DNA of 64,000 bases from assembly GCF_036507355.1 (NCBI RefSeq), contig NZ_AP027877.1; one strand, 5' to 3'. This stretch comes from Escherichia coli (GTDB lineage Bacteria > Pseudomonadota > Gammaproteobacteria > Enterobacterales > Enterobacteriaceae). Made by a program: the position numbers and the translations under genes. The notes below the pieces were generated by a model. That model had not been told where the DNA came from. It made no database searches and was given only the letters and a program-made list of their open reading frames with translations. This document shows positions 511-59,508 of this stretch, piece by piece; the stretch's first letter is position 1, and every line of letters begins with the position of its first letter.

Positions 511-1401
511 ATGGATGCAAAACAAACGCGGCAGGGCGTATTACTCGCTCTTGCCGCTTATTTTATTTGGGGTATAGCCCCAGCGTACTTCAAGTTGATT
601 TACTACGTGCCCGCCGATGAAATCCTGACGCATCGCGTGATCTGGTCGTTTTTCTTTATGGTGGTGCTGATGAGCATTTGCCGCCAGTGGTCCTATTTAA
701 AAACGCTGATTCAGACGCCACAGAAAATTTTTATGCTTGCAGTCTCTGCCGTGCTGATTGGTGGCAACTGGCTACTGTTTATCTGGGCGGTGAACAATCA
801 CCATATGCTGGAAGCGAGCCTTGGTTACTTTATTAACCCGCTGGTGAACATTGTGCTGGGGATGATTTTCCTCGGCGAGCGATTCCGCCGGATGCAATGG
901 CTGGCGGTGATTCTGGCGATATGTGGCGTGTTGGTTCAGCTGTGGACTTTTGGTTCACTGCCGATCATCGCGCTGGGACTGGCATTTAGTTTTGCCTTCT
1001 ACGGTCTGGTACGCAAGAAGATTGCCGTTGAAGCGCAAACCGGCATGTTAATCGAAACTATGTGGCTGCTGCCCGTGGCGGCAATTTACCTGTTTGCTAT
1101 TGCCGATAGCTCAACCAGCCATATGGGGCAAAACCCGATATCGCTGAATTTACTGCTGATCGCTGCCGGTATTGTCACTACCGTACCGCTGTTGTGTTTT
1201 ACTGCAGCTGCGACACGCCTGCGTCTCTCAACGTTAGGCTTTTTCCAGTACATTGGCCCGACGCTGATGTTCCTGCTGGCTGTGACGTTTTATGGTGAAA
1301 AACCGGGTGCCGATAAAATGGTGACTTTCGCCTTTATTTGGGTGGCGCTGGCAATTTTTGTGATGGATGCAATTTATACTCAACGTAGAACGTCCAAATA
1401 A
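511..1401 (+). CDS. rarD: RarD, EamA/DMT-family transporter
   Basis: 296-aa polytopic membrane ORF, expected length and synteny. Confidence 0.9.
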   Translation: MDAKQTRQGVLLALAAYFIWGIAPAYFKLIYYVPADEILTHRVIWSFFFMVVLMSICRQWSYLKTLIQTPQKIFMLAVSAVLIGGNWLLFIWAVNNHHMLEASLGYFINPLVNIVLGMIFLGERFRRMQWLAVILAICGVLVQLWTFGSLPIIALGLAFSFAFYGLVRKKIAVEAQTGMLIETMWLLPVAAIYLFAIADSSTSHMGQNPISLNLLLIAAGIVTTVPLLCFTAAATRLRLSTLGFFQYIGPTLMFLLAVTFYGEKPGADKMVTFAFIWVALAIFVMDAIYTQRRTSK

Positions 1402-1435
1402 AAAATAAATATATTCTGAAAAAATATGCCGACTC

Positions 1436-1813
1436 TTGCATGAGAGTGGGCATATTGCCATGCTGACAGGAGACTCACACAAGGATGTAAAATTTATGTT
1501 ACGTATGTTTATCCCAACATCTAACGGTAAGATTTCCAGACGCCGTTATATATTTTCATTTATTTTAATAAACTTCATTTTTGCCTTTCTTATTATCTTT
1601 TTTAACGATGGAGAAGCAGGTTTTCTTGTTATAGTCTCTACCATCTTACTCCATTATCTCGTCATCAATCTGAATTGCCAACGACTCCGTGATAGTGGTT
1701 TCGTCTATATAAAAACTTATGTTTTTGGTACATTAGCAGTATATATCATCTCTATCATCACAATGATAGCCGAAGATTTTGCCTGTTCAGGCAATGGTTC
1801 GATGATTTTTTAA
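1436..1813 (+). CDS. yigG: small inner-membrane protein, YigG-like
   Basis: 125-aa hydrophobic ORF in the expected position between rarD and yigF; start codon uncertain. Confidence 0.55.
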
Positions 1814-1888
1814 TTTGTTATTTTTCCACTTTCAGTATGCTAATGCTTGCACCTACTGATTCATCAAAACAATAGTTATGGAGTATTT

Positions 1889-2269
1889 ATGAGTAAGGAA
1901 TATATGAACGATGGTTCATTAAGTGAAAAATGGAAATACCGATTTAATTTTTATGATCAACATGGTTTTCCTGGATTCTGGGGGGCAACACCAGAATATA
2001 AAGCAGCATTTAAAGCATTAAAAGTAAGACAACGCTTAACTATTCAAATGAATTTCATTGCTTTCTTCTGTTCCTAGATATATTTATTTGTCCTGGGGTT
2101 ATGGAAAAAAGCAATTATAGTTCTATTACTTGGTATTCTATCTCTATTTGTTGGTGCACTAATTGGCGTTAACATTCTGGGTATTGCCGTAGCAGCCTAT
2201 GTTGCTGTTAACACGAACAAATGGTTCTATGAGAAAGAAGTAAAAGGGTTAAATACCTGGAGCCTTTGA
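1889..2269 (+). pseudogene. yigF: yigF (DUF2628 membrane protein) interrupted by in-frame TAG at 2075-2077
   Basis: Frame from MSKEY (1889) stops at TAG 2075-2077, then stays open in the same frame for 63 more codons to TGA 2267-2269; 62+1+63 = 126 codons, the length I recall for intact YigF. Confidence 0.6.
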
Positions 2270-2275
2270 ATAAGA

Positions 2276-2310
2276 GGTGGCTTAGCCAGGCTAAGCCACC
2301 GCCTTCTTTT
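2276..2310. terminator. hairpin (GGTGGCTTAGCC/GGCTAAGCCACC) plus T-run between convergent yigF and corA 3' remnant
   Basis: perfect inverted repeat followed by CTTCTTTTT on the + strand. Confidence 0.5.
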
Positions 2311-2446
2311 TACAACCAGTTCTTGCGCTTAAAGTACAGATACGGTGCCAGGCCCGCGAGGATCATAAAGATAATCGCGCCTGGGTAGCCGAAACTCCAC
2401 TTCAGTTCTGGCATAAACTCAAAGTTCATGCCATAGCTGGAGGCAA
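2310..2446 (-). pseudogene. detached corA 3'-terminal remnant (last 44 codons incl. GMN motif); left copy of a 137-bp imperfect direct repeat
   Basis: ORF 2310..2513 ends ...[44 protein letters not shown], identical in amino acids to the C-terminus of full corA at 4017..; upstream part of the ORF is unrelated or decayed. Confidence 0.7.
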
Positions 2447-2637
2447 TCCGCGTAGGAAAAAGTTTCCTAATCGGTAAATTCAACATATTGTTATTAACAA
2501 TGGGCAAAACCAATCAATAACGAGATTCCCTTCGGAATGTAATAAAAATGTGAAGTGTACTTCTTTTTTAAAATTTTTTATCCTAGCATTTGTTCTCAAA
2601 TTGATATTGAGCTTAAATATAACCAAGGAAAATGTAA

Positions 2638-3345
2638 ATGAATAACACATTACTTCCATCAATTAATATTCCCTGTACACTTTTCGAAACTATTAGTTTA
2701 TTTGATGATTATTCTGCTGATGATATGCAATATGGTGATATGGTAGAACAAGATTTTCTCTCACTCGGCCTAAGCGATATCTCAGCAAAAGTTGATCCTT
2801 ACAGACTTATTAAATACCATTTCCCTGGCCCAGGTTCTGTTAATGTTGTTTTTAGTGCCTCAAGTTCCGGAACAAAAATATCACAACGTGAATGCACTGA
2901 TATTTTATTTGCAGAAATGAAAGAACTAGCAAAAAATTTTTCCTTTTTTGGACAATATAAAACACTTATCGAAGATCTGATTGAACATTTTAGATATGGA
3001 AATGGCAGCAATTTTCATAGCCAACAATTAAATTTATCTTTTCATGAAAAGATAAATAAATATGGTTATAATAGTCCAATACGAATAATCAAAGAATGTA
3101 TCGAAAATGGCATTAATTCAACTCCCTCGACAGGATACCAACCTCTTATCCTGCAAAGCATTAAAACCAAATTACTTTCATCAAGACTAAATAAATTTAA
3201 TGACTTCGAGGACAGTTTTAATGGCTTAGGAATCAGTATTCATGATATTTCAGCTCAAAAAAATATCTCTTTTAAGCTTTCAAAAATACGCTATAGGGTG
3301 GAGTGCGACAATTCATTTTGTAGCACAGGACCACTTCGGTCTTGA
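2638..3345 (+). CDS. hypothetical protein, AT-rich cassette gene A; probably frameshifted, C-terminus may continue in +1 frame to 3487
   Basis: 235-aa ORF with AAGGA RBS ~8 nt upstream; ~30% GC; overlapping +1-frame ORF 3242..3487 ends in an ATGA overlap with gene B. Confidence 0.5.
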   Translation: MNNTLLPSINIPCTLFETISLFDDYSADDMQYGDMVEQDFLSLGLSDISAKVDPYRLIKYHFPGPGSVNVVFSASSSGTKISQRECTDILFAEMKELAKNFSFFGQYKTLIEDLIEHFRYGNGSNFHSQQLNLSFHEKINKYGYNSPIRIIKECIENGINSTPSTGYQPLILQSIKTKLLSSRLNKFNDFEDSFNGLGISIHDISAQKNISFKLSKIRYRVECDNSFCSTGPLRS

Positions 3346-4016: not shown

Positions 4017-4967
4017 TTACAACCAGTTCTTCCGCTTAAAGTACAGATACGGTGCCAGGCCCGCGAGGATCATAAAGATAATCGCGCCTGGGTAGCCGAA
4101 ACTCCACTTCAGTTCTGGCATAAACTCAAAGTTCATCCCGTAGCTGGAAGCAACCAGCGTTGGCGGCAGGAACACGACGGATACCACCGAGAAAATTTTG
4201 ATGATGCGGTTCTGCTCGATGTTGATAAAACCCATTGCCGCCTGCATCAGGAAGTTCACCTTCTGGAACAGGGATTCGTTATGCGGCAGCAGGGATTCGA
4301 TATCTCGCAGGATTTCACGCGCCTGCTCCAGTTGCCCACCCGGTAAGCGTGCTTTACGTACCAGGAAGTTGAGAGCGCGCTGGGTATCCATCAGACACAG
4401 GCGAACTTTCCAGCCGATATCTTCCAGTTCCGCCAGAGTGGAGAGCGCCTCGTCGTACTCATCGCCCTGATGCCCTTCCATAATCACCCGGCTCAATTGC
4501 TCCAGGTCGCTATAGATATTTTCAATTTCATCTGCCAACTGTTCGATTTTGGTTTCGAACAAATCCAGCAGCAACTCGTAGGCGTTACCGTCTACCATCG
4601 ACTGGCTACGGGCACGCATACGATATAGACGAAAAGCGGGCAGTTCACGCTCACGCAGAGTAAACAGACGACCATCACGGATGGTAAATGCCACAGTGGA
4701 GTTACCGGCGTGATCTTCCGCATCTTCAAAGAAGAAGAAGGAGTGAATATGCAGGCCGTCATCGTCTTCAAAGAAACGTGCCGATGCTTCGATGTCTTCC
4801 AGTTCCGGGCGGGTTGCCAGGCTCTGGCCAAGTTCAGATTGTACGCGCAGTCGCTCGTCGTCGTCCGGTTCGACAAGATCAATCCATACTGCATTTACAA
4901 GGGGTTGTGACTCTTCGACTTCCAGCCGGGTCAGTCGGTTATTTTCCAGTTGAAATGCGCTCAGCAT
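4017..4967 (-). CDS. corA: Mg2+/Co2+ transporter CorA
   Basis: ORF 4017..4982; native start [10 protein letters not shown] gives 316 aa; GMN motif and two C-terminal TM segments present. Confidence 0.95.
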
Positions 4968-6183: not shown

Positions 6184-7086
6184 ATGAAAAAAACGCTCGC
6201 AACGTTATTTTTATTAACGTGTCTGGGATCATCATCCGCTTATGCGGATAACGCTTTGATTTTACAAACGGATTTTAGCCTGAAAGATGGCGCCGTCTCG
6301 GCGATGAAAGGGGTCGCATTCGGTGTTGACCATAATCTTAAAATATTTGATTTAACACACGAAATTCCACCGTATAACATCTGGGAAGGCGCATACCGCC
6401 TGTATCAGACCGCCAGCTACTGGCCGCAAGGTTCGGTGTTTGTCAGCGTGGTCGATCCGGGCGTGGGGACTGACCGTAAATCGGTGGTGCTGAAAACCAA
6501 AAACGGTCAATACTTCGTTTCACCGGATAACGGTACGCTCACTTTGGTGGCGCAATCGCTGGGTATTGAGAGCGTCCGGCAAATCGATGAAAAAACCAAC
6601 CGCCTGAACGGTTCCGAAAAGTCATATACCTTCCACGGTCGTGATGTGTATGCCTACACCGGTGCGCGTCTGGCTTCCGGGGCGATCACGTTCGAACAGG
6701 TGGGGCCAGAGCTTCCTGCAAAAGTTGTCGAACTGCCTTATCAGAAAGCCAAAGCAACAAAAGGTGAAGTAAAGGGCAATATCCCGATTCTCGATATTCA
6801 GTACGGCAACGTCTGGAGCAATATCAGCGACGAGTTGCTGAATCAGGCAGGAATCAAACTCAACGATACGTTATGTGTGACCATTTCCGAAGGTTCCGAG
6901 AAAAAATACGAAGGGAAAATGCCGTATGTCGCCAGCTTCGGCGATGTGCCGGAAGGACAGCCGATGGTGTATCTGAACAGCTTATTGAATGTTTCCGTGG
7001 CGCTGAATATGGATAATTTCGCGCAGAAACATCAGGTTGCGTCTGGTGCTGACTGGAATATTGATGTGAAGAAATGTGATAAGTAA
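6184..7086 (+). CDS. secreted S-adenosyl-L-methionine hydroxide adenosyltransferase family protein (DUF62 / fluorinase-chlorinase-like fold)
   Basis: 300-aa ORF; N-terminal signal peptide MKKTLATLFLLTCLGSSSAYA; family-typical motifs ILQTDFS..DGAVSAMKGV and DLTHEIPPYN. Confidence 0.7.
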   Translation: MKKTLATLFLLTCLGSSSAYADNALILQTDFSLKDGAVSAMKGVAFGVDHNLKIFDLTHEIPPYNIWEGAYRLYQTASYWPQGSVFVSVVDPGVGTDRKSVVLKTKNGQYFVSPDNGTLTLVAQSLGIESVRQIDEKTNRLNGSEKSYTFHGRDVYAYTGARLASGAITFEQVGPELPAKVVELPYQKAKATKGEVKGNIPILDIQYGNVWSNISDELLNQAGIKLNDTLCVTISEGSEKKYEGKMPYVASFGDVPEGQPMVYLNSLLNVSVALNMDNFAQKHQVASGADWNIDVKKCDK

Positions 7087-12754: not shown

Positions 12755-12942
12755 TATGGATTGCCTGTAAAGTTCATCGCTTTCTGCTTTCTATCATCGC
12801 AGGAGAAGGCGTAAAAGCAAGCGTTTAGCGACTCTTTATGAAGTCTGAAAAGTGAGGAAATGCTGCGAGTATAACGCTTACTCGTGGGGATTTATGTTTT
12901 GCTGGTAGTTTCGTGATCGGCACCTCGCGCCAGGATGGCTTT

Positions 12943-14421
12943 ATGCACTATCGCAATGTGGTTTGTTTGTTGGCTTGTTCGTTGTTTTTATCGTCGGCAT
13001 GGGGATGTCGGCTTTCCGCACCTGAACATAATATTTACCAGAAACAGGGAAAAGGCGTGGTGTACCTGCGCCCTTATAAAGAAACAAATCTTTCTCTACC
13101 TGACGTGAATTACAAGAGTTTGCGTCGGTTACCCAATTTATTAATAGACCCGACAACACTAGACGAATGGGATAAAGAACCGCCTCAGACTGATTTGACA
13201 ACCGACTACCTCTATGAGGGCGCACAGGCCTGGTATCCTCATTATTCCTGGTATAGCGATGGTCGCAATATCCTCTACGCGGGTGAAGTTGTGCAAAACC
13301 CTCCCGGCACACCTCCCGTCGATGTCGCCTCGTTCAAGGCATGGGGTGATTTTGCTGCAGATAAACACAGTCTCTATTTTGAAGGCAAGCGCACCGATGA
13401 CAATGGTGGGAGAAATAGCTTAGATATCAAAACGCTGCATCAGGTGGAATTCCGGCCTCCCTGGGCTCCTGACTTACTGGGGCTGATATTACGTGACGCT
13501 AATTTCTTGTATATCAATGGGCATCGCCTCGCTGACCCCGAGAGTTTCCGTGTGCTGGCGCAGAAGTCCTGGGATCAGCGAGGAAAGTTTTCCACCACGT
13601 TTAACCCCTGCGTTGCCGTACCATTCGGCCCCTGGGATACCCTGGCTCGTACACGGACCAAAATCCTGATCAACGGCGAACAGCTTGATGCCGACCCGGA
13701 CACCTTTTCCGTCGTGCGCTGGATGCCCGGCTCACTCTTGACCTGGCGTGATAAAAACGGGCTACAGCGTAAAGTCCTCGACAAGGAAAATCTGGCGTGG
13801 GATGAGGATTTAACAAAGCACTGTCTGGATTTTTCTCTGCTGGAAAAGAAAGTGTTCTGGCGTCAGGGGCCTGACTGTAAACAGGAAGAATTACCGGGAC
13901 TCGATCCGGAACAGTTTCACCCCATCAGTGATGCTGTCGCACAGTATCAGGACTCGCTTTATACCATCATCGAAACAGAGTCTGGTGACCGCAAGCTGGA
14001 GATCGTGAAACTTGATGATCCCAATCTTATTATCAACAAACGTTTCAACGCCGGGAAACGCCACGGCTATTTACTTACGCGTGCCGAAGGGTGGCCATAC
14101 CATTCCGGTTTACACGTGTTTGAATCTGACGGACCGCTGATCTTACTGGATAACCGCTCTCCGGATGAACGCGAAGCCCATCTTAATGACCATCCCTTTT
14201 TGCGCAGATGGTATGCCCGCGATAACCGCTACGTTTACAGCTTTGATGGCGCGCAGCTCTGGCGATACCGCACCGCGGATCCGAAACAAGTTCGCTTAAT
14301 CTGGAAGGAACAACATTCGGGATATGGCTACGGGGTAAATTACAAAACGGGATATCTGGACGGAAAAATTACCGATGACGGCGAATTTATTCCTGCCCCG
14401 CGCAATGAGGCGACAAAATGA
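12943..14421 (+). CDS. secreted repeat protein, paralog A (DKNYY-like repeats); accessory
   Basis: ORF 12913..14421; ATG at 12943 with AGGA upstream; hydrophobic N-terminus; motifs DKHSLYF, DANFLYI, DNRYVYSF; strong similarity to downstream paralog. Confidence 0.6.
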   Translation: MHYRNVVCLLACSLFLSSAWGCRLSAPEHNIYQKQGKGVVYLRPYKETNLSLPDVNYKSLRRLPNLLIDPTTLDEWDKEPPQTDLTTDYLYEGAQAWYPHYSWYSDGRNILYAGEVVQNPPGTPPVDVASFKAWGDFAADKHSLYFEGKRTDDNGGRNSLDIKTLHQVEFRPPWAPDLLGLILRDANFLYINGHRLADPESFRVLAQKSWDQRGKFSTTFNPCVAVPFGPWDTLARTRTKILINGEQLDADPDTFSVVRWMPGSLLTWRDKNGLQRKVLDKENLAWDEDLTKHCLDFSLLEKKVFWRQGPDCKQEELPGLDPEQFHPISDAVAQYQDSLYTIIETESGDRKLEIVKLDDPNLIINKRFNAGKRHGYLLTRAEGWPYHSGLHVFESDGPLILLDNRSPDEREAHLNDHPFLRRWYARDNRYVYSFDGAQLWRYRTADPKQVRLIWKEQHSGYGYGVNYKTGYLDGKITDDGEFIPAPRNEATK

Positions 14422-15743
14422 ATGGTCAAATAATCACTGTTGCACTCATCCTGTTGGGGCACATATTTCTGACGCCTGCTGTACAGGCCATAGGGTTCGA
14501 CTATTACAATGATCACGGTGTTATGTCTTACGGTAAAGGTTATGGGGAGGATGAGAAAATCATTGCCCAATTTCCGAAGATGAACAGAGCCGATTTGCGC
14601 CTTGTGACAAATATATCCGGGGAGCGGGAGTTAGTGGAAGGCTATATACCCACCGATGAAATAAGCATAAAAAATGAGGAATACCACTGGGTGACAGACG
14701 GCCGCGTTATTCTCTGGCGTGGCAAAATCGTTAGCAATCCACCGGGAACACCCACTGTCGATATTGCCAGCTTTCAGGCTATGGGCCGCTTCGCGGTCGA
14801 TAAATATAGCCTCTATTTTGATGGACAGCGCACCGAAAGTAATAGCGGCGCGTCACGTGTTGATCTGGCGACACTAAAAGCTATCGAAGGTAACTCTACC
14901 ACGCTGGTGGATAGTAAAAATCTCTATTTGTCCGGTCGACGTCAGGGGAGCAGCAGTAATGTTACTGTATTAGAAAAAAGATGGTGGGGTATTAATCCAC
15001 GTCTTATGAGTGTAAACAGAAATTTGTATTCCAATGATCTGCTTATCCGCAGTGGGCAGAATATTTATTTAAATGCCGTTCACCTTACAGCGAATGCAGA
15101 CTCATTTGAGATAATTCGCTGGATATCTCATTCACTGCTGGTTTTTCGCGACAATAAGGGTCTGCATCGTTATCCCTTTGGGCAATTGTCTGGCAAAGCG
15201 ATACCCGTAGATGATGACGTCTCTTTTGAAGTAGGGGAAAGTCGCGTTCGCTGGCGTAAACAGCTCACGCCCGACCGTCAGTGGAGCAAGTGGATAGACC
15301 TACCAGGTATTGAACCTGAACAATTTCATCTGATTACTGGCAATATTGCGCAATATAAAGATCGGTTGTATGTAACAAAATTATCGACATTTGGTGAAGA
15401 CCAGCTTGAGATAATCCCGCTGGATACGCCAGACCTGGTCATTGATCACTCATTTAATAGCGGCAAACAGCATGCTTATTTTATCCGCCAATTACGGTCA
15501 AAGAGCGTGCAAATTATTCCAGTTAACGGTCCGCTAACTAAAAACGATCGCTTCGCTTATGACGATCGCAATGTTTATACATGGACCGATACAGAGGTAA
15601 GGATTACACCCTCCCCCTGCCCGGCGAAAACACGCGTCAGAGAAGAGAATGTGCGCGAACTTCACAACAGAGACATTATTATTCCGTTGACGGATGAATC
15701 ATGCCGTAACGCAGCCGCAGAGGTGCAAACTTTGAAGCCCTGA
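14418..15743 (+). CDS. secreted repeat protein, paralog B (DKNYY-like repeats); accessory
   Basis: 441-aa ORF; signal peptide ending AVQA; ATGA overlap with paralog A; shared blocks NPPGTP.VD.ASF and EPEQFH..IAQY.D.LY. Confidence 0.6.
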   Translation: MNGQIITVALILLGHIFLTPAVQAIGFDYYNDHGVMSYGKGYGEDEKIIAQFPKMNRADLRLVTNISGERELVEGYIPTDEISIKNEEYHWVTDGRVILWRGKIVSNPPGTPTVDIASFQAMGRFAVDKYSLYFDGQRTESNSGASRVDLATLKAIEGNSTTLVDSKNLYLSGRRQGSSSNVTVLEKRWWGINPRLMSVNRNLYSNDLLIRSGQNIYLNAVHLTANADSFEIIRWISHSLLVFRDNKGLHRYPFGQLSGKAIPVDDDVSFEVGESRVRWRKQLTPDRQWSKWIDLPGIEPEQFHLITGNIAQYKDRLYVTKLSTFGEDQLEIIPLDTPDLVIDHSFNSGKQHAYFIRQLRSKSVQIIPVNGPLTKNDRFAYDDRNVYTWTDTEVRITPSPCPAKTRVREENVRELHNRDIIIPLTDESCRNAAAEVQTLKP

Positions 15744-57865: not shown

Positions 57866-59508
57866 GATAATTTCTCCAACATTTCTGAATTACTGGCACC
57901 AGGCGGCACCAGCGGCCAGACGTTCTCAAGTTCGTCGATTGAGACATGAAGCAGGTATGGCCCATCACTGTTCAGCATGGTGTCGAGTGCCGCTTCAACC
58001 TGGTCTTTACGGGTGATGTGTTGGCCAGGGATGCCGAAGGCGCTGGCTAACATGAGGAAATCGGGGTTATCGGTAAGGGTGGTTTCGCTGTATCGTTCCT
58101 GGAAAAACAGTTGCTGCCATTGTCGAACCATCCCTAACCGTTGGTTATCGAGTAAGACGATTTTCAACGGTAACTGCTTGCGTTTTACGGTGCCCAGCTC
58201 TTGTACATTCATCATGAAAGAGCCGTCACCGGAGATACAGACGATGGTATCGTTCGGCCTCGCGACTTGCGCGCCAACCGCCGCCGGTAAACCGAAACCC
58301 ATGGTGCCTAAGCCGCTGGAGGTGATGAAATTTTCCGGGCGAGTGTGGGCGATGTGCTGGGCAGCCCACATCTGGTGCTGCCCCACATCAGTGGTCACGA
58401 CGCAATCCGCAGGTTTACGATCCGACAGTTGCTTTAACAACAACGGCGCGTAGATAGCGTCACCGGGATGATCGTAACGCCAGGCATGTTCATCACGCAG
58501 CTGTGCGCAGTATTGCTGCCAGTCATTGATATTTAATGGCTGCTGTAATGCTGGTAACAGAGCATTTAAATCACCCTGTAATGCCACATGTACCTGACGC
58601 AGCTTGTTCATTTCTGCCGGATCGATATCCATATGGATAACGCTGGCGAGTGGCGCGAAAGTGTTCAGTTTGCCGGTCACCCGGTCATCAAAACGTGCGC
58701 CCACAGCGATCAGCAAGTCGCACTCCTGCACCGCGAAGTTCGCCGCTTTGGTGCCATGCATTCCCAGCATTCCCAGATAGTACGGATAATCTGCTTCAAC
58801 TGCGCCCAGCCCTTTCAGCGTGCAGGTGGCAGGCATTTTTGTGGTAGAGAGAAATTCTCGTAAAGCAGGAACTGCCTGCGCCATACCCACGCCACCGCCA
58901 ACGTACAGCATCGGTTTTTGCGCTTTTGCCAGCATCTGGCGCGCTTGCTCGACTTCGGCATGGGGGAAAGTCACTTCGTTTTCAACGGTGGTGAACCACG
59001 GTTCCAGGTCGCCGCTGGCTAACTGGATATCTTTTGGGATATCGACCAGAACCGGACCAGGACGACCTGAGCTGGCAACGTCGAATGCTTCAGCCATGAT
59101 GCGCGGCAACTCTTCCAGCGACTGCACCAGGAAGCTGTGCTTAGTACAGGCTAACGACAATCCCAGGACATCCACTTCCTGAAATGCGTCAGTGCCGATA
59201 AACGGTGCGGACACTTGACCGGTGATGGCAACAACAGGGATAGAATCTAACAGTGCGTCCGCAAGCCCGGTTATCAGGTTGGTTGCGCCCGGACCAGACG
59301 TGGCGATACATACGCCAGTTTTGCCGGTAGCACGGGCATAACCGATAGCCGCCATTGCCGCGCCCTGTTCATGTCGGCACAGCAAGTGCTCCACGCCGCC
59401 GTCATACAATGCATCGTAAACCGGCATAATTGCGCCACCCGGATAACCGAAAACGGTGTTCACACCCTGTGCCCGCAACGCATGTACCACCCACTGTGCG
59501 CCATTCAT
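57862..59508 (-). CDS. ilvG: acetolactate synthase II large subunit IlvG, intact
   Basis: single uninterrupted 548-aa ORF; K-12 carries a frameshift here, so this is a non-K-12 background. Confidence 0.9.

What the first reader, a model, noticed from the sequence alone, without database searches (positions are those of the whole stretch)
2075..2077. In-frame TAG at a conserved Trp position in yigF
The yigF frame is open for 62 codons, hits TAG, then stays open in the same frame for 63 more codons encoding a hydrophobic membrane segment. Total length equals the 126 aa I recall for intact YigF, which has Trp (TGG) at this position. A single G-to-A transition would explain it.
Basis: partly seen in the sequence, partly recalled or inferred. 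Interest (0 to 1): 0.45.

Follow-up and report, generated by a model that had tools for sequence, protein, structure and literature searches.

The report
Recurrent amber stop breaking yigF
A small E. coli membrane-protein gene of unknown function (yigF) is cut in half by one G-to-A change at a DNA-methylation site that mutates unusually often; this is an ordinary, already catalogued pseudogene.

Summary
yigF lies at window 1889-2269 (+) and codon 63 (2075-2077) is TAG where E. coli K-12, XJ34, D8, ATCC 8739 and C have TGG. The frame is otherwise intact: 62 codons, the TAG, 63 codons, then TGA.

It is a real allele. Two independent public assemblies of the same rare lineage carry it.

The mutated G is the fourth base of CCTGG, a Dcm site (CCWGG). 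It pairs with the methylated inner C of the other strand, so G-to-A is what 5-methylcytosine deamination would produce.

The same G188A occurs on five different yigF haplotypes. Three of them differ from a TGG reference (K-12, ATCC 8739, E. coli C) by that one base over 1.8-2.5 kb, so the mutation has recurred.

RefSeq already marks this allele as a "yigF pseudogene, internal stop" in three complete genomes.

The 62-residue product loses the family's most conserved block (YLFVLGLWKK) and both hydrophobic segments. There is no in-frame restart codon. All six tRNA genes in the window, including trpT, have wild-type anticodons.

The upstream gene yigG is also frameshifted in this lineage. yigG-yigF is a 33% GC accessory islet that is decaying piecemeal. 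Low interest; already known.

The parts
1889..2269 (+). yigF (DUF2628 inner-membrane protein gene), now a pseudogene: 126 codons with an internal amber stop at codon 63
   Evidence: The W-restored product matches Pfam PF10947 DUF2628 (40.6 bits, cut-off 23); the 62-aa product matches nothing.
2075..2077 (+). TAG at codon 63 (TGG in the references); the changed base is window 2076 = gene position 188
2073..2077 (.). Former Dcm site CCTGG (gene positions 185-189), now CCTAG. The mutated G pairs with the inner, methylated C of CCAGG on the other strand
   Evidence: The motif scan of K-12 yigF finds Dcm sites at 82, 185, 204 and 368; TGG codons 63 and 124 are the only ones inside a Dcm site. Methylation itself was not tested.
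2078..2266 (+). Untranslated remnant of yigF (codons 64-126): the invariant YLFVLGLWKK block and the hydrophobic segments. It contains no in-frame ATG, GTG or TTG
   Evidence: conservation; no restart codon; hydropathy above 1.6 for 19-residue windows centred on residues 59-63 and 69-100.
1496..1875 (+). yigG, the upstream gene of the same AT-rich islet, also a pseudogene here. A T7-to-T6 deletion in the run at 1806-1811 shifts the frame to a TAA at 1811-1813 (105 aa instead of 126)
   Evidence: The exact 105-aa product is on only 3 public contigs, and both contigs shown (L030, L031) also carry the 62-aa yigF product.
2276..2300 (.). 11-bp-stem hairpin between yigF and the corA fragment, scored as terminator-like on both strands. 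yigF is the last gene of its unit, so the stop has no downstream gene to affect

Best explanation
This is a spontaneous loss-of-function (amber nonsense) allele of the accessory gene yigF. The ancestral sequence TCC TGG ATA contains a Dcm methylation site, CCTGG. Deamination of the 5-methylcytosine on the complementary strand (CCAGG to CTAGG), if it escapes very-short-patch repair, fixes as G-to-A on the coding strand and turns Trp63 into TAG. Translation then ends after 62 residues, inside the first hydrophobic segment and just before the family's most conserved motif. No functional membrane protein is expected. Because the site is a mutational hotspot and yigF is dispensable, the same mutation has arisen several times in E. 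coli. Shown here: the base change, its motif context, its recurrence on different backgrounds, the loss of the domain, and the lack of a restart codon. Inferred: that methylation and deamination caused it, and that the truncated product is inactive.
For: - Base change and motif: G188A lies at G4 of CCTGG.
- Recurrence: W63* TAG is found on 5 haplotypes. L004-6 differ from K-12 by 1 nt in 1,760-2,300 bp. L009 differs from ATCC 8739 by 1 nt in 1,760 bp. L008 differs from E. coli C by 1 nt in 2,461 bp. A fourth (h3) lineage and the window's own divergent lineage (44-48 differences from the others) also carry it.
- Pre-existing background: synonymous variants 183C and 207T, 5 and 19 bp either side of the site, occur with TGG in about 125 complete genomes and with TAG in 3.
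- Direction: all 15 W63* loci are TAG and none is TGA. At the second Dcm-embedded Trp codon (W124), three of four loci are G371A (TAG) and one is an indel. Non-Dcm Trp codons show TAG and/or TGA: W72 shows both, W112 only TGA.
- Abundance of the exact truncated products, in contigs: W63* 156 and W124* 109, against 0-57 for nine other nonsense positions.
- Literature: the inner C of CCWGG mutates C-to-T about 8-fold faster in natural E. coli (Cherry 2018, as summarised in PMC9520237). 5-methylcytosine hotspots and Vsr repair are described in PMC5306230 and PMC13250602.
- Loss of function: no Pfam match for the 62-aa product, the invariant block 65-74 lies after the stop, and there is no in-frame start.
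- Existing annotation: PGAP labels the same allele a pseudogene with an 'internal stop'.
- Dispensability: yigF is found in only 2,457 of 5,426 complete genomes, the islet is 33% GC, and yigG is independently broken here and in E. coli C.
Against: - Methylation of this site and the presence of dcm and vsr in the source genome could not be examined, because they lie outside the window.
- Contig counts are not counts of independent events. Clonal expansion and contig-end 'partial' proteins distort them, so the 3- to 5-fold excess at Dcm-site codons is supportive only.
- Non-Dcm nonsense changes (W72*, W112*) are also seen on more than one background. With this many sequenced genomes, recurrence alone does not prove a hotspot.
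- All 14 non-stop polymorphisms in yigF are synonymous. The intact gene is therefore under purifying selection elsewhere, and its loss may not be strictly neutral.
Confidence: 0.8

Rival explanations
1. Loss of yigF is favoured by selection in some niches. The TAG recurs because knock-outs are advantageous, and the hotspot merely supplies the easiest route.
For: Many different disruptions of the islet are seen. These include nonsense alleles at every codon looked up except E115 (9 of 10 looked-up truncated products in the collection, plus W63*), a yigG frameshift, yigG S21* in 125 complete genomes, contig breaks inside yigG and yigF, and IS1 next to yigG in L015.
Against: The pattern is equally expected for a weakly selected accessory gene sampled in hundreds of thousands of genomes. 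W63* is rare: 3 of about 2,450 complete genomes with yigF. E. coli C and B keep an intact yigF despite a dead yigG. Polymorphism in intact alleles is purely synonymous.
Confidence: 0.12
2. The TAG arose once and spread between lineages by homologous recombination.
For: The four-gamete pattern between sites 183/207 and 294/339 shows that recombination does occur inside yigF.
Against: Three TAG haplotypes are identical to three different TGG references except for the one base, over 1.8-2.5 kb. To move the TAG onto the 183C/207T background, an imported tract would have to be shorter than 24 bp.
Confidence: 0.04
3. The TAG is decoded, by an amber-suppressor tRNA or by efficient readthrough, so full-length YigF is still made.
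For: No direct evidence. The downstream 63 codons are still open with only synonymous differences, but that is expected for a recent mutation.
Against: trpT and aspT are wild type. All six tRNAs in the window have normal anticodons. The partner gene yigG is frameshifted in the same lineage. PGAP treats the allele as a pseudogene. A strong suppressor would also affect the many normal TAG terminators (general knowledge).
Confidence: 0.03
4. It is a sequencing or assembly error.
For: The window does contain one homopolymer difference (A8 against A7 at 3251-3258) that is absent from its nearest relative and could be such an error.
Against: The TAG is a substitution, not a homopolymer indel. It is present in two independent assemblies of the same lineage and in many others.
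Confidence: 0.01

Closest known systems
yigF pseudogene alleles annotated 'internal stop' in RefSeq (E. coli MLI023K1, MLI023K2, PRO_A-1412-6M-A_ESBL)
   Same: They carry the identical G188A, W63* TAG in yigF, with the same gene order rarD-yigG-yigF-corA.
   Different: They sit on a different synonymous haplotype (183C/207T). yigG is intact and there is no corA-duplication islet. They represent an independent origin.
5-methylcytosine (Dcm, CCWGG) deamination hotspots: the lacI amber hotspots of Coulondre et al. 1978 and the genome-wide excess of Cherry 2018
   Same: The change is a C:G to T:A transition at the inner C of CCWGG that creates an amber codon, and it recurs independently.
   Different: Here it is a natural population variant in a gene of unknown function. 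The methylated C is on the non-coding strand (TGG to TAG, where lacI shows CAG to TAG). Methylation was not measured.
YigF / DUF2628 (PF10947) small membrane proteins
   Same: The restored sequence is 100% identical to WP_000032581.1 and passes the Pfam cut-off.
   Different: The encoded product stops at residue 62 and no longer matches the family.

Membership tests
YigF / DUF2628 (PF10947) | Sequence match to the family profile above the curated cut-off | tested here: met
   With W restored: 40.6 bits against a cut-off of 23, residues 17-117. The DNA is one base from alleles encoding WP_000032581.1.
YigF / DUF2628 (PF10947) | The encoded product contains the conserved core (Y65, L69-G70-L71-W72-K73-K74) and the hydrophobic segments | tested here: not met
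   The stop at codon 63 precedes the invariant block. The 62-aa product has no Pfam hit. There is no restart codon.
Pseudogene by internal stop | An in-frame stop inside a region that is collinear with intact orthologues | tested here: met
   The same allele is flagged 'internal stop' by PGAP.
Dcm / 5-methylcytosine deamination hotspot mutation | The ancestral sequence is CCWGG and the change is C-to-T at the inner C (G-to-A on the opposite strand) | tested here: met
   CCTGG at gene positions 185-189, with G188A giving CCTAG.
Dcm / 5-methylcytosine deamination hotspot mutation | Independent recurrence of the same change | tested here: met
   Five haplotypes carry it, and three of them are one base from K-12, ATCC 8739 and E. 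coli C.
Dcm / 5-methylcytosine deamination hotspot mutation | Excess over comparable non-Dcm sites | tested here: inconclusive
   156 and 109 contigs for the Dcm-site codons against 0-57 for other nonsense positions, and TAG only at the Dcm codons. The counts are not independent events.
Dcm / 5-methylcytosine deamination hotspot mutation | The site is actually methylated and the host has dcm | not testable with these tools
   dcm and vsr are outside the window, and no methylome data are available.
Amber suppression / programmed readthrough | A suppressor tRNA (CUA anticodon) is present | tested here: not met
   The six tRNAs in the window are Pro-UGG, Leu-CAG, His-GUG, Arg-CCG, Trp-CCA and Asp-GUC. 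The trpT region is 100% wild type. The rest of the genome was not available.

The most novel reading that the evidence does not exclude
The Dcm-embedded Trp codons of yigF (W63 and W124) act as a recurrent, mutation-biased off-switch, and loss of the YigG/YigF membrane pair is positively selected in some E. coli habitats. That would give a first phenotypic handle on two genes of unknown function.
Probability: 0.08. Interest if true: 0.35.

Novelty: already known. Interest (0 to 1): 0.12.

Why it matters
It matters little in itself. The window's strain lacks a functional copy of a dispensable membrane protein of unknown function, and annotation pipelines already recognise this. It is a clean natural example of a methylation-driven hotspot producing the same amber pseudogene allele repeatedly. 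It is also a reminder that shared nonsense alleles in E. coli are not safe phylogenetic markers when they sit in CCWGG.

Tried and rejected
- **Wrong frame.** My first translation (1890-2270) was off by one. Corrected to 1889-2269.
- **Close complete-genome relative.** I looked for a relative of the window with TGG, to date the mutation. None exists in RefSeq complete E. coli. The best matches were 98.9% over 20 kb and 99.3% over yigF, and strain D8 matches only the 3' half of rarD.
- **Non-random co-inactivation of yigG and yigF.** Rejected as unproven. yigG S21* is common (125 complete genomes, including E. coli C and B derivatives) and occurs with an intact yigF.
- **Translational restart.** There is no in-frame ATG, GTG or TTG after codon 63.
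- **Known RNA element at the site.** Rfam finds nothing near yigF.
- **trpT-derived suppressor.** The sequence is wild type.
- **Cherry 2018 full text.** Not held, so it is cited through a review.
- **yigF literature.** Nothing functional. It is mentioned only as part of an AT-rich 'promoter island' and as a database-listed 'virulence factor' without evidence.

Full report
**Observation.**
The start of the window has the E. coli order yigI (31-459), rarD (511-1401), yigG, yigF, corA. yigF runs from ATG 1889 to TGA 2267-2269. Its translation is 62 residues, a stop, then 63 residues. Codon 63 is TAG at 2075-2077.

Against yigF of K-12 J53 (L002) and XJ34 (L001), the only non-synonymous difference is gene position 188, which is A here and G (TGG) there. 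Positions 294 and 351 are synonymous. In this 34% GC DNA a 63-codon open run has a chance probability of about 0.01, so this is a recently interrupted gene.

**Is it real?**
The exact 62-aa product is on record on 156 contigs under E. coli names, in 295 blocks of the collection. L007 (GCA_905398585.1) matches the window with 1 mismatch and 1 indel in 7,078 bp and has the TAG. A Logan assembly (SRR31122001, L031) of the same rare lineage has it too. An assembly error is excluded.

**What caused it.**
The ancestral sequence is TCC TGG ATA. CCTGG at gene positions 185-189 is a Dcm site (CCWGG), and the mutated base is its G4, which pairs with the methylated inner C of the other strand. G-to-A here is therefore the signature of 5-methylcytosine deamination that escaped Vsr repair. 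That is the classical source of amber hotspots in E. coli (Coulondre et al. 1978, cited through PMC5306230; PMC13250602). In natural E. coli genomes it gives an approximately 8-fold excess of C-to-T at this position (Cherry 2018, as summarised in PMC9520237). Methylation itself was not tested.

**Recurrence.**
All ten fetched loci with the 62-aa product have TAG and none has TGA. They fall on five synonymous haplotypes and in two genomic contexts, with and without the islet next to corA.

| TAG loci | Nearest TGG reference | Differences |
|---|---|---|
| L004-L006 | K-12 | position 188 only, over 1,760 bp (and over 2,300 bp in a separate comparison) |
| L009 | ATCC 8739 | position 188 only, over 1,760 bp |
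| L008 | E. coli C | position 188 only, over 2,461 bp |
| L003, L010, MLI023K1, PRO_A-1412 | a further rarD haplotype | no one-step TGG reference found |
| window, L007 | none close | 44-48 differences from the other TAG loci |

The variants 183C and 207T flank the site by 5 and 19 bp. They occur with TGG in about 125 complete genomes and with TAG in 3. Transfer by recombination would therefore need a tract shorter than 24 bp. Several independent origins are the parsimonious reading.

**Controls.**
yigF has six TGG codons. Only W63 and W124 lie in Dcm sites.

| Truncated product | Contigs | Dcm site |
|---|---|---|
| W63* | 156 | yes |
| W124* | 109 | yes |
| W31* | 57 | no |
| W72* | 44 | no |
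| Q48* | 37 | no |
| W112* | 32 | no |
| K73* | 23 | no |
| Y65* | 21 | no |
| Q53* | 19 | no |
| L66* | 16 | no |
| E115* | 0 | no |

At the Dcm codons the point mutants are all TAG. At W72 both TAG and TGA occur, and at W112 only TGA. This fits a hotspot. However, the counts mix clonal copies and contig-end fragments, so I treat it as supportive only.

**Consequence.**
- The restored protein matches DUF2628 (PF10947, 40.6 bits). The 62-aa product matches nothing.
- In an alignment of 15 homologues, the invariant block Y65...L69-G70-L71-W72-K73-K74 starts two residues after the stop.
- W63 itself is Trp only in Escherichia-like sequences and is Phe, Val or Pro further away.
- Hydropathy places the stop inside the first hydrophobic stretch, and everything after it is lost.
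- There is no in-frame ATG, GTG or TTG downstream.
- A terminator-like hairpin follows the gene, so there is no polar effect.
- PGAP annotates the identical allele as 'yigF pseudogene, internal stop' in MLI023K1 and PRO_A-1412.

**Suppression.**
The window contains trpT, and the trpT-aspT region is 100% identical to the sequence in more than 5,400 genomes. The six tRNAs in the window have normal anticodons. The other candidate suppressor loci are outside the window.

**Context.**
- yigG-yigF is a 33% GC islet between flanks of 50-54% GC.
- It is present in 2,457 of 5,426 complete E. coli genomes and replaced by unrelated DNA in others, for example EC20017429.
- It has been described as an AT-rich 'promoter island' (PMC3661553).
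- All 14 non-stop polymorphisms seen in yigF are synonymous, so intact copies are under purifying selection.
- In the window's lineage yigG is also dead, through a T7-to-T6 frameshift that gives a 105-aa product.
- In L008, yigG carries S21*. That allele is shared by 125 complete genomes, including E. coli C and B derivatives, which keep yigF intact.
- The islet therefore decays gene by gene. I found no evidence that the two losses are coupled.

**Verdict.**
This is a genuine, recent amber pseudogene allele of a dispensable gene, most probably produced by 5-methylcytosine deamination at a Dcm site, and recurrent in E. coli. It is an already known kind and an already annotated allele, so interest is low.

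Noticed in passing
window 1496-1875 (T run at 1806-1811): yigG is frameshifted (T6 instead of T7), giving a 105-aa product ending at TAA 1811-1813. L007 and L031 share this, and only 3 public contigs carry the allele.
   Followed up: yes
window 3251-3258 (within ORF 2638-3345): The YPO3983/DUF3289 family gene has A8 where L007 and strain D8 have A7. This splits the 282-aa gene into 235-aa and 81-aa ORFs. It is the only indel between the window and L007, so it is either a strain-specific frameshift or a homopolymer sequencing error.
   Followed up: partly
window 2310-2453 and 4017-4160: The last 144 bp of corA are duplicated (about 96% identical) on either side of a 1.56-kb, 30-35% GC islet carrying the DUF3289 and DUF943 genes. 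The islet is present in 2,635 of 5,426 complete E. coli genomes and absent from K-12.
   Followed up: partly
window 2256-2260 (yigF codon 124, ACC TGG AGC): A second Trp codon sits in a Dcm site. Its TAG variant (123-aa product) is the second most common truncated YigF in public data (109 contigs), on at least two backgrounds. It is intact in the window.
   Followed up: yes
L008 and L032 (E. coli C), yigG codon 21: yigG S21* (TCA to TAA) is present in 125 complete genomes, including E. coli C and B/BL21 derivatives, with yigF intact.
   Followed up: yes
L011 and L012 (contig starts), L015 1-511: Two assemblies with the yigF TAG begin inside yigG, at positions 160 and 170. Many 'partial' YigF proteins sit at the ends of contigs of about 32-33 kb. 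CP091022.1 has IS1 directly upstream of yigG. Together these suggest IS insertions in this islet in some lineages.
   Followed up: no
window 900-1420 (3' half of rarD): This segment is only 96.4% identical to K-12. A single complete genome (strain D8, river water, Panama) reaches 99% or more, while neighbouring segments are 98-99% identical to many genomes. It is probably a recombinant patch.
   Followed up: partly
window 6184-7086 and 12913-15743: These are accessory genes absent from K-12: a SAM hydrolase/halogenase family gene between yigE and uvrD, and two DKNYY family genes near cyaA. The names come from the matching RefSeq records.
   Followed up: no
L031 516-1406: In the Logan assembly of the window's lineage, rarD is called as two pieces (91 and 198 aa). 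This is either a further disruption or an assembly error.
   Followed up: no
protein collection, cluster 2: YigG and YigF, which show no evident sequence similarity (pair not aligned), are listed in the same 90% identity cluster. This looks like a clustering artefact, perhaps through a fused or mis-called ORF.
   Followed up: no
window 57862-59508 (-): There is a 548-aa ORF at the position of ilvG, apparently intact, whereas from memory K-12 carries a frameshift there. Not checked.
   Followed up: no
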